Assembly (NCBI RefSeq): GCF_041248615.1
Contig: NZ_CP158426.1
DNA: 64,000 bases
Reading direction: 5' to 3' (one strand)
From: Escherichia coli
GTDB lineage: Bacteria > Pseudomonadota > Gammaproteobacteria > Enterobacterales > Enterobacteriaceae
Shown here: positions 50,104-50,121 of the stretch, one piece after another
How the letters are laid out: every line of letters begins with the position of its first letter
Position numbering within the stretch: position 1 is the stretch's first letter
Program-made: the position numbers and the translations under genes
The notes under the pieces: model-generated
Databases searched by the model: none
Told to the model about the DNA's origin: nothing
Seen by the model: the letters and a program-made list of their open reading frames with translations, nothing else

Positions 50104-50121
50104 TGTGCACCAGGTGCACCA
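50104..50121. promoter_or_regulatory. Putative MhpR operator in the mhpR-mhpA divergent region
   Basis: tgtgcaccaggtgcacca: two GTGCACC copies, the second within the perfect palindrome GGTGCACC, between the divergent starts of mhpA (49962) and mhpR (50153). Confidence 0.4.

What the first reader, a model, noticed from the sequence alone, without database searches (positions are those of the whole stretch)
50104..50121. Tandem GTGCACC and palindromic GGTGCACC motif in the mhpR-mhpA divergent promoter
tgtgcaccaggtgcacca contains two copies of GTGCACC, the second within the perfect 8-bp palindrome GGTGCACC, midway between the divergent mhpA and mhpR starts. It is a plausible IclR-type (MhpR) operator.
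Basis: partly seen in the sequence, partly recalled or inferred. Interest (0 to 1): 0.2.

Follow-up and report, generated by a model that had tools for sequence, protein, structure and literature searches.

The report
Known MhpR operator of E. coli

Summary
The sequence tgtgcaccaggtgcacca is at 50104-50121 as described. The window is E. coli, with mhpA (48298-49962, minus strand) and mhpR (50153-50986, plus strand) diverging from a 190-bp spacer. Bases 50104-50120 are the exact reverse complement of GGTGCACCTGGTGCACA. A 2021 review of IclR-family motifs lists that sequence as the MhpR binding motif, citing Torres et al. 2003.

The conserved unit is the dyad TGTGCAC-N3-GTGCACA, not a tandem GTGCACC or the 8-bp GGTGCACC. 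In 80 orthologous mhpR loci from Enterobacterales to Pseudomonas and Marinobacter, exact GTGCAC-N3-GTGCAC occurs 70 times in 449 kb (about 0.03 expected). It is nearly always once per locus, and its centre lies 25 bp upstream of a conserved TTG that I read as the -35 of the catabolic promoter. The CC/GG bases are E. coli-specific. The second GTGCACC depends on a K-12-type allele; the other sampled strains carry A, giving a perfect 17-bp palindrome. The site is not midway: it is 41 bp from the mhpR ATG and 150 bp from the mhpA ATG.

Side observations: conserved flanking blocks, a three-hexamer variant in 16 genomes, and NtrC-like half-sites.

The parts
50104..50120 (.). MhpR operator: 17-bp imperfect palindrome TGTGCACC-A-GGTGCACC, written GGTGCACCTGGTGCACA in mhpA sense. 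The perfect 15-bp core is 50105-50119 and the dyad centre is 50112.
   Evidence: Sequence and palindrome. It is identical to the published MhpR motif (PMC8222616 Table 1, citing Torres 2003). The two GTGCAC hexamers carry 1.7-1.9 bits per position in 76 distinct orthologous sites.
50082..50087 (-). Inferred -35 hexamer of the catabolic promoter Pa (TTGTAG in mhpA sense). Its TTG starts 25 bp from the operator centre.
   Evidence: GCTACAATCAAAACA is invariant in 19 enteric sequences. TTG is at +25..+27 in Pa sense in 72 of 77 sites. CAA is invariant while the flanking TA and T vary, which fits a -35 on the minus strand and not a -10 on the plus strand. This is an inference, not a mapped promoter.
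50060..50065 (-). Inferred -10 hexamer of Pa (TATACT in mhpA sense), with a 16-bp spacer to the -35. The implied transcription start is about 50053-50054, which puts the operator centre at about -58/-59.
   Evidence: AGTATA is invariant in enterics and present at the same distance in Pseudomonas, Azotobacter, Marinobacter and Zobellella. The -58 figure matches my memory of the Torres 2003 abstract; that paper is not held.
50088..50093 (-). Conserved T-tract (TTTTGA in mhpA sense) between the operator and the Pa -35.
   Evidence: Positions -22..-19 relative to the dyad carry 1.2-1.9 bits in 76 sites, and TTTT sits at +19..+22 in Pa sense. It is also present at second operators that are not next to mhpR. 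Its function is not established.
50124..50131 (.). Conserved block TTGTTTTA (TAAAACAA in mhpA sense, about -70 to -77 of Pa), between the operator and the mhpR start.
   Evidence: It carries 0.9-1.6 bits at +12..+19 in 76 sites and forms an imperfect inverted repeat with 50083-50095 (I3). It is absent at the Marinobacterium second operators. Its function is unknown.
50139..50160 (.). Weak CRP-like sequence AAATGTCAATTAATATGCAGAA, centred at 50149.5 and overlapping the mhpR start codon. It is a candidate for the MhpR-dependent CRP site of Pa.
   Evidence: A crude CRP consensus scan scored it 12.3 of 20.6, within the top 0.45% of window positions. Its centre is 95.5 bp upstream of an inferred start at 50054, matching the -95.5 I recall from Torres 2003 (memory only). 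PMC8753852 states that MhpR is essential for CRP binding at Pa. TGTCA is conserved in Escherichia, Citrobacter and most Kluyvera/Pseudocitrobacter sequences but not in Klebsiella or Raoultella.
50153..50986 (+). mhpR, the IclR-family activator that binds the operator.
   Evidence: RefSeq annotation of the 100% identical record. Pfam HTH_IclR covers residues 15-64 and IclR_C covers 89-256. NCBIfam NF007341 scores 344 bits.
48298..49962 (-). mhpA, the first gene of the regulated mhpABCDFE catabolic operon.
   Evidence: RefSeq annotation and Pfam FAD_binding_3 at 2.4e-84.

Best explanation
Window 50104-50120 is the operator of MhpR, the IclR-family activator encoded next door. An MhpR dimer, or a higher oligomer, places its two winged-helix domains on the dyad half-sites TGTGCAC and GTGCACA, whose hexamer centres are 9 bp apart. 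The pathway substrates 3-hydroxyphenylpropionate, phenylpropionate and dihydroxyphenylpropionate stimulate binding. The site is centred about 58 bp upstream of the start of the catabolic promoter Pa, just upstream of a weak -35. From there MhpR activates transcription of mhpABCDFE and allows cAMP-CRP to bind a poor site further upstream, which gives catabolite control.

Shown here: identity to the published motif, the family of the regulator, the dyad symmetry, and fixed spacing to a conserved -35/-10 across Gammaproteobacteria. Taken from literature statements: effector-stimulated binding, activation of Pa, and MhpR-dependent CRP binding. Inferred or recalled: the exact -58 and -95.5 positions and the oligomeric state.
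For: 1. The sequence equals the published MhpR motif GGTGCACCTGGTGCACA (PMC8222616 Table 1, citing Torres et al. 2003).
2. The operator-centred 41-mer is 100% identical in K-12 strains, the background of the published work.
3. The window is the E. coli mhpR-mhpA spacer, and MhpR is an IclR-family protein.
4. Exact GTGCAC-N3-GTGCAC is found in 67 of 80 orthologous loci, and within 2 mismatches in 77 of 80. It usually occurs once per 5.8-kb locus.
5. The flanking bases are dyad-symmetric, not translationally repeated. Positions -8/+8 are complementary in 43 of 76 sites and -1/+1 in 50 of 76. In the direct-repeat register the corresponding bases are identical in only 5 and 11 of 76.
6. The operator centre lies 25 bp upstream of TTG in 72 of 77 sites. 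A TATACT-like -10 follows 16-17 bp later.
7. Where gene order differs, the motif follows the catabolic promoter. It precedes mhpB-like operons (the Marinobacterium second copies and the P. sagittaria/S. stutzeri group) and mhpD (Azotobacter), with the same spacing to TTG in most of these cases; the P. sagittaria/S. stutzeri group has TTCCTT or similar and no clear TTG.
8. Pa matches the sigma-70 consensus poorly. The promoter scan found no site reaching 9 of 12, as expected for an activator-dependent promoter.
9. PMC8753852 describes MhpR as the 3HPP-dependent activator of Pa that is essential for CRP binding. [quoted passage not shown]
Against: The primary footprinting papers (Torres 2003; Manso 2009, 2011) are not in the held library. 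The footprint boundaries, the -58 and -95.5 positions and the stoichiometry therefore rest on a secondary citation, my memory and inference from conservation. No transcription start for Pa under induction could be retrieved. The only retrievable start is a weak uninduced one 18 nt upstream of mhpA. Three loci (two Vibrio, one Lampropedia) have an MhpR relative but no motif in the region held.
Confidence: 0.95

Rival explanations
1. The palindrome acts as RNA. When transcribed, for example in an mhpR leader, it forms a hairpin followed by a U-rich run and works as an intrinsic terminator or attenuator.
For: The consensus scan flags 50105-50119 plus CACGTTGTTT as terminator-like on the plus strand. 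The TTGTTTT run after the palindrome is conserved.
Against: The hairpin is weak and unexceptional: -7.4 kcal/mol, z = -0.63, and 53 of 200 shuffles fold at least as well. The stem is conserved as a specific sequence (GTGCAC in 70 or more of 76 sites) rather than through compensatory changes. The only covariation is at -1/+1, and that pair would close a 1-nt loop, which cannot form. The U run is separated from the stem by 3 nt. The same motif appears upstream of catabolic promoters where no mhpR leader exists.
Confidence: 0.02
2. The site is primarily the target of another regulator: CRP, because TGTGC-N7-GCACA resembles TGTGA-N6-TCACA, or NtrC, because it holds two TGCACCA half-sites.
For: Each half-site matches the CRP half-site at 4 of 5 bases (direct reading). 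An NtrC gSELEX peak (88%) maps to K-12 position 367,650 in this spacer, about 35 bp from the operator centre, and the NtrC box is TGCACCAnnnTGGTGCA. TGCACCA lies at 50106 and 50115.
Against: The CRP spacing is off by one base, and the CRP scan does not rank the site highly. The best full NtrC-box match has 3 of 14 mismatches and its right half is poor. The CC/GG bases that NtrC needs are not conserved outside E. coli and its relatives, whereas GTGCAC is. The motif tracks mhpR orthologues, not nitrogen genes. At most this is secondary cross-talk.
Confidence: 0.03
3. Besides activating Pa, the same operator controls mhpR itself through autoregulation or promoter occlusion. It lies only 41 bp upstream of the mhpR ATG, and 29-43 bp upstream in most orthologous loci, so any mhpR promoter must overlap it or read through it. 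This adds to the main explanation and does not exclude it.
For: The distance from operator centre to mhpR start is 29-43 bp in 70 of the 77 loci that carry the motif, while the distance to mhpA varies from 89 to 427 bp. In Pseudomonas a Shine-Dalgarno-like AAGG sits between the operator and the ATG, leaving no room for a downstream promoter. Residues 9-19 of MhpR are conserved and HTH_IclR starts at residue 15, so translation must start at or near 50153.
Against: From memory of Torres 2003 and Manso 2011, the mhpR promoter Pr is MhpR-independent and CRP-dependent. I could not place Pr. The short, constant distance may only reflect compact divergent promoters.
Confidence: 0.15
4. It is a chance palindrome with no function.
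For: Perfect 7-1-7 palindromes occur at about the expected rate in the window, 6 against 4.5.
Against: There are 70 exact double hexamers in 449 kb of orthologous loci against about 0.03 expected, at a fixed position. The sequence is also identical to the published operator.
Confidence: 0.005

Closest known systems
MhpR operator of the E. coli K-12 mhp Pa promoter (Torres, Porras, Garcia and Diaz 2003, J Biol Chem 278:27575), as listed in PMC8222616 Table 1
   Same: The 17-bp sequence is identical (in reverse complement). The location in the mhpR-mhpA spacer is the same. The operator-centred 41-mer is identical to K-12.
   Different: The operator itself does not differ. The window strain differs from K-12 at two bases nearby, 50132 and 50137.
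Operators of aromatic-catabolism IclR-family activators (PcaU, PobR, PcaR, HmgR), which PMC8222616 groups under GTNCG-N5-6-CGNAC
   Same: They are dyad-symmetric sites of 15-19 bp next to a divergently transcribed IclR-family gene, immediately upstream of the catabolic promoter. MhpR's nearest NCBIfam relative outside its own equivalog series (PRK09834.1) is the PcaR/PcaU/PobR subfamily, at 128 bits and below cutoff.
   Different: The MhpR half-site is GTGCA, not GTNCG, and each half contains a self-complementary hexamer, so the site is also a 9-bp direct repeat. I found no clear external third half-site like that of PcaU, PobR or HmgR. Instead there are conserved AAAAC/GTTTT blocks of unknown role.
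CRP site (TGTGA-N6-TCACA)
   Same: Both use a TGTG/CACA dyad. CRP also acts in this same spacer.
   Different: The spacer is 7 bp, not 6, and the site is recognised by a different protein family. It is not a member.
NtrC box (TGCACCAnnnTGGTGCA)
   Same: The K-12-type operator contains two exact TGCACCA half-sites, and an NtrC gSELEX peak maps to this spacer.
   Different: The half-sites are direct repeats 9 bp apart, not inverted repeats with a 3-bp gap. The best full-box match has 3 of 14 mismatches. The required C at 50120 was absent from every sampled E. coli strain outside the K-12-type group.

Membership tests
Published E. coli MhpR operator (Pa promoter) | Sequence GGTGCACCTGGTGCACA | tested here: met
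   The reverse complement of window 50104-50120 equals the motif in PMC8222616 Table 1.
Published E. coli MhpR operator (Pa promoter) | Lies in the mhpR-mhpA divergent spacer of E. coli | tested here: met
   There is a 100% match to an annotated E. coli chromosome, with mhpA ending at 49962 and mhpR starting at 50153.
Published E. coli MhpR operator (Pa promoter) | Protected by MhpR in footprinting, with binding stimulated by 3HPP | not testable with these tools
   Secondary statements only: PMC8222616, PMC11237407 and PMC8753852. The primary papers are not held.
Published E. coli MhpR operator (Pa promoter) | Centred at about -58 of the Pa transcription start | tested here: inconclusive
   The conserved TATACT (50065-50060) and TTG (50087-50085) imply a start at about 50053-50054 and a centre at -58/-59. 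No mapped start for induced Pa was retrievable, and the -58 figure is from memory.
IclR-family regulator operator | Cognate adjacent gene encodes an IclR-family protein (HTH_IclR plus IclR_C) | tested here: met
   Pfam PF09339 at 1.8e-14 and PF01614 at 7.6e-13. NCBIfam NF007341 is above cutoff.
IclR-family regulator operator | Dyad-symmetric site whose half-sites co-vary symmetrically | tested here: met
   The core is a perfect 15-bp palindrome. Flanks at -8/+8 and -1/+1 are complementary in 43 and 50 of 76 sites, against 5 and 11 in the direct-repeat register.
IclR-family regulator operator | Motif co-occurs with orthologous regulators across genomes, at regulated promoters | tested here: met
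   It is exact in 67 of 80 loci and within 2 mismatches in 77 of 80. It also lies upstream of mhpB-like and mhpD operons in rearranged clusters.
GTNCG-N5-6-CGNAC group of IclR motifs (PMC8222616) | Half-sites GTNCG / CGNAC separated by 5-6 bp | tested here: not met
   The conserved site reads GTGCA-N5-TGCAC, so the fifth base of each half is A/T, not G/C. The review nevertheless places MhpR in this group, so the resemblance is loose.
CRP binding site | TGTGA-N6-TCACA with a 6-bp spacer | tested here: not met
   The site is TGTGC-N7-GCACA. With N6 spacing the right half matches at 1 of 5 bases, and the CRP scan does not rank it highly.
Intrinsic terminator or structured RNA | A hairpin more stable than shuffled sequence, with a U-run directly after the stem | tested here: not met
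   -7.4 kcal/mol with z = -0.63. Three bases separate the stem from the T run.
NtrC box | Inverted TGCACCA / TGGTGCA separated by 3 bp | tested here: not met
   There are two direct TGCACCA half-sites. The best full-box match, at 50115, has 3 of 14 mismatches.

The most novel reading that the evidence does not exclude
The K-12-type operator allele (C at 50120) creates two exact NtrC half-sites (TGCACCA at 50106 and 50115). This would explain why an in vitro genomic SELEX for NtrC gave one of its strongest peaks in this spacer. If NtrC binds here in vivo, it would compete or cooperate with MhpR. Aromatic-acid catabolism would then be coupled to nitrogen status in a lineage-specific way, since the other sampled E. 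coli strains carry A at that base. A related open point is that the conserved AAAACAA and TTTT blocks flanking the dyad may be outer contacts of an MhpR tetramer or bending elements.
Probability: 0.1. Interest if true: 0.35.

Novelty: already known. Interest (0 to 1): 0.08.

Why it matters
The finding confirms a textbook-level regulatory site and opens no new question. It serves as a positive control for the scan, because a reader working from raw sequence correctly picked out an experimentally defined operator. The comparative work adds modest value. It shows which bases of the published 17-mer are actually constrained: the two GTGCAC hexamers and the outer T/A. It shows that the geometry between operator and -35 is fixed across Gammaproteobacteria. 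It also shows that E. coli carries natural operator alleles (+8 C or A, and a three-hexamer expansion) that could be used to probe MhpR binding.

Tried and rejected
1. Reading the primary papers. Torres 2003, Manso 2009, Manso 2011 and two MMBR reviews are not held. A full-text search for the motif string found only PMC8222616.

2. Locating the mhpR promoter Pr and the induced Pa start.
- The promoter scan found nothing.
- The Cappable-seq supplements had no matching coordinates.
- The Kim 2012 supplement gave only a weak uninduced mhpA start at 367817 and no mhpR start.
- The Mendoza-Vargas 2009 supplement listed only a RACE primer for mhpR.
- The Reg-Seq preprint gives CRP at -38..-59 of mhpRp2 without coordinates.
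- Two placements of Pr fit the published numbers. One has CRP at 50139-50160 with a start near 50190 inside the annotated ORF. The other has a CRP-like reading of the operator itself with a near-leaderless start. I could not decide between them. The first conflicts with the conserved N-terminus of MhpR.

3. TACAAT (50083-50088) as a Pr -10. Rejected, because only CAA is conserved across genera, which fits the TTG of the Pa -35 on the other strand.

4. TTGTTT (50124-50129) as a Pr -35. Rejected, because the -10 would then fall beyond the start codon in Pseudomonas.

5. Counting the three-hexamer allele with a 56-mer query. This failed because BLAST joined overlapping pieces. A 33-mer specific to the allele worked.

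6. The RNA hairpin, CRP-site, NtrC-box and chance readings are treated under rival explanations.

Full report
**Observation.** The string tgtgcaccaggtgcacca is at window 50104-50121 exactly as reported. GTGCACC occurs at 50105-50111 and 50114-50120, and the 8-bp palindrome GGTGCACC at 50113-50120. GTGCACC-A-GGTGCAC (50105-50119) is a perfect 15-bp palindrome centred on 50112. It extends to a 17-bp imperfect palindrome at 50104-50120. Because GTGCAC is self-complementary, the site is both an inverted repeat and a 9-bp-spaced direct repeat.

**Locus.** The window is E. coli. An 801-bp stretch around the site is 100% identical to NZ_OW967178.1 and is present in 4896 of 5426 complete genomes. RefSeq annotation places mhpA at 48298-49962 on the minus strand and mhpR at 50153-50986 on the plus strand, followed by lacI and lacZ. 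The spacer is 190 bp. The motif centre is 41 bp from the mhpR ATG and 150 bp from the mhpA ATG, so "midway" is inaccurate.

**Chance.**
- Within the window, GTGCACC occurs three times on both strands, all here, against 10.4 expected.
- GTGCAC occurs six times against 17-22 expected. Two copies are 9 bp apart here and all other gaps are at least 1178 bp.
- A perfect 7-1-7 palindrome is not rare by itself (6 observed, 4.5 expected). The combination with a 9-bp direct repeat is rare, at 0.025 per 64 kb.
- No other place in the window comes within 3 mismatches of the 17-mer consensus.
- The strongest evidence is comparative and is given below.

[quoted passage not shown] 2003. This is the exact reverse complement of window 50104-50120. 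The operator-centred 41-mer is 100% identical in K-12 derivatives. Two other papers describe the mechanism:
[quoted passage not shown] The primary papers are not in the held library. The footprint boundaries and the -58 (MhpR) and -95.5 (CRP) positions that I recall from the Torres 2003 abstract are therefore marked as memory.

**The regulator.** The protein encoded at 50153-50983 has Pfam HTH_IclR (residues 15-64) and IclR_C (89-256). It exceeds the cutoff of NCBIfam equivalog NF007341 (344 bits against 269). The PcaR/PcaU/PobR subfamily is its next relative outside that equivalog series. Solved homologues are all IclR-family proteins, including TtgV, for which a DNA complex exists.

**Phylogenetic footprint.** I aligned MhpR orthologues and used the alignment to fetch 80 loci, one per species, from Escherichia to Pseudomonas, Azotobacter, Marinobacter, Marinobacterium and Zobellella.
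- Exact GTGCAC-N3-GTGCAC is present in 67 of 80 loci. There are 70 hits in 449 kb against about 0.03 expected, usually one per locus.
- Allowing 2 mismatches, 77 of 80 loci have it.
- In 76 distinct sites the two hexamers carry 1.7-1.9 bits per position. The outer bases are T (-8) and A (+8). The central three bases are weakly Y-A-R.
- The E. coli CC/GG bases that make GTGCACC are not conserved. The -1/+1 pair is C/G in 21 sites and T/A in 29.
- The flanks are dyad-symmetric. Positions -8/+8 are complementary in 43 of 76 sites and -1/+1 in 50 of 76. In the direct-repeat register the corresponding bases are identical in only 5 and 11 of 76.

The functional reading is therefore the palindrome TGTGCAC-N3-GTGCACA, not a tandem repeat.

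**Geometry.** I oriented the sites toward the catabolic genes. The consensus is AAAACAA-N4-tGTGCAC-tta-GTGCACa-N10-TTTTcaTTGTaG, with TTG 25 bp from the dyad centre in 72 of 77 sites. A TATACT-like hexamer follows 16-17 bp later. In the window these elements are TTGTAG (50087-50082) and TATACT (50065-50060). They imply a start near 50053-50054 and an operator centre at -58/-59, which agrees with the recalled -58.

Only CAA is invariant in the block that reads TACAAT on the plus strand; the TA and final T vary. That pattern fits a -35 for Pa and not a -10 for mhpR. Pa matches the sigma-70 consensus too poorly for the scan to call it, as expected for an activator-dependent promoter.

Where gene order differs, the motif follows the catabolic promoter:
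- Marinobacterium has a second copy about 220 bp upstream of an mhpB-like gene.
- The P. sagittaria / S. stutzeri group has it upstream of a divergent mhpB-like gene, though without a clear TTG at the expected distance.
- Azotobacter has it upstream of mhpD.

**Mechanism.** An MhpR dimer, or two dimers, contacts the two half-sites in adjacent major grooves. Effector binding to the IclR_C domain increases operator occupancy. From -58 the protein recruits RNA polymerase to a promoter with a weak -35 and permits CRP to bind a poor upstream site. A weak CRP-like sequence at 50139-50160 (centre 50149.5) lies 95.5 bp from the inferred start and overlaps the mhpR ATG. This assignment is tentative.

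**Rivals.**
- An RNA hairpin or terminator reading, which the scan flagged, fails. The fold is -7.4 kcal/mol with z = -0.63. Conservation is of sequence, not of pairing. The motif also occurs where no mhpR leader exists.
- CRP and NtrC readings fail on spacing.
- Chance is excluded.
- An additional role in controlling mhpR itself is not excluded. The operator lies 29-43 bp from the mhpR start in most loci. In Pseudomonas a Shine-Dalgarno-like AAGG leaves no room for a promoter downstream of the operator. The conserved N-terminus shows translation starts at or near 50153.
- I could not place the mhpR promoter, and the literature as I recall it says that promoter is MhpR-independent.

**Population variation.** The 41-mer is exact in 1487 of 4900 records, and 3377 records differ by 1-2 bases. 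All three non-K-12-type strains I sampled carry A at window position 50120, which makes a perfect 17-bp palindrome. Sixteen complete genomes carry a 9-bp unit expansion that gives three hexamers.

**Verdict.** The element is already known and interest is low.

Noticed in passing
window 50120 (and L082-L084, L002): The C at +8 of the operator is a K-12-type allele. The operator-centred 41-mer is exact in 1487 of 4900 E. coli records, and all three non-K-12-type strains sampled carry A here. That A gives a perfect 17-bp palindrome, TGTGCACCAGGTGCACA, and removes the second GTGCACC and the 8-bp GGTGCACC.
   Followed up: partly
L085 (NZ_AP038817.1 1022133-1022165) and 15 other complete E. coli genomes: A 9-bp unit expansion of the operator, GTGCACCAG-GTGCACCAG-GTGCACC, gives three hexamers. 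It occurs in 16 of 5426 genomes, many from chickens. It probably arose by slippage on the direct repeat. Its effect on MhpR binding is unknown.
   Followed up: partly
window 50106-50121; K-12 map position 367,650: The operator holds two exact NtrC half-sites, TGCACCA. PMC8743547 reports an 88% NtrC gSELEX peak in this spacer and a second, 71% peak at the mhpC/mhpD junction (about window 46461), where I found no good NtrC box. This may be in vitro cross-recognition.
   Followed up: partly
window 50085-50093 and 50124-50131: Two blocks flank the operator at fixed distances and are conserved from E. coli to Pseudomonas. They read CAATCAAAA (TTTTGATTG in mhpA sense) and TTGTTTTA. They form an imperfect inverted repeat whose centre is 2 bp off the operator dyad. 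The first includes the Pa -35 TTG. The rest is unexplained and could be outer MhpR contacts, A-tract bending or an UP-like element.
   Followed up: partly
window 50022-50049: The block TTTGTTAA..ATGTAAA..TTTTTTA is conserved among enteric genera. It lies just downstream of the inferred Pa start, within the mhpA leader. Its function is unknown, and a near-copy, TTGTTTTAAATATATAAATG, lies at 50124-50143 (D1).
   Followed up: no
window 50139-50153: E. coli mhpR has no recognisable Shine-Dalgarno sequence upstream of its ATG (AATGTCAATTAATATG). Kluyvera, Pseudocitrobacter, Klebsiella, Raoultella and Pseudomonas have AGGA, GAGG or AAGG there, whereas Citrobacter lacks one like E. coli. The mhpR start site could not be found, so a very short leader or a leaderless mRNA is possible.
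   Followed up: partly
window 50132 and 50137: The window strain differs from K-12 and the other sampled E. coli at two bases between the operator and the CRP-like site: AAATATATAAATG against AACTATAGAAATG.
   Followed up: no
L054 2671, L065 3301, L072 3323: Marinobacterium species carry a second double-hexamer operator just after mhpR, about 220 bp upstream of an mhpB-like gene and with the same spacing to TTG. Their regulon therefore has two operators.
   Followed up: yes
L035, L043 (Vibrio), L062 (Lampropedia): These MhpR relatives (62-74% identity) have no GTGCAC-N3-GTGCAC anywhere in the 5.8 kb held, and no divergent mhpA. The operator may lie elsewhere or the specificity may differ.
   Followed up: no
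window 49980 (K-12 NC_000913.2 367817): Kim et al. 2012 list a weak transcription start (9 reads) 18 nt upstream of mhpA. It is distinct from the inferred MhpR-dependent start near 50054.
   Followed up: no
whole window: The hexamer GTGCAC (the ApaLI site) is under-represented in the window, with 6 observed against 17-22 expected.
   Followed up: no
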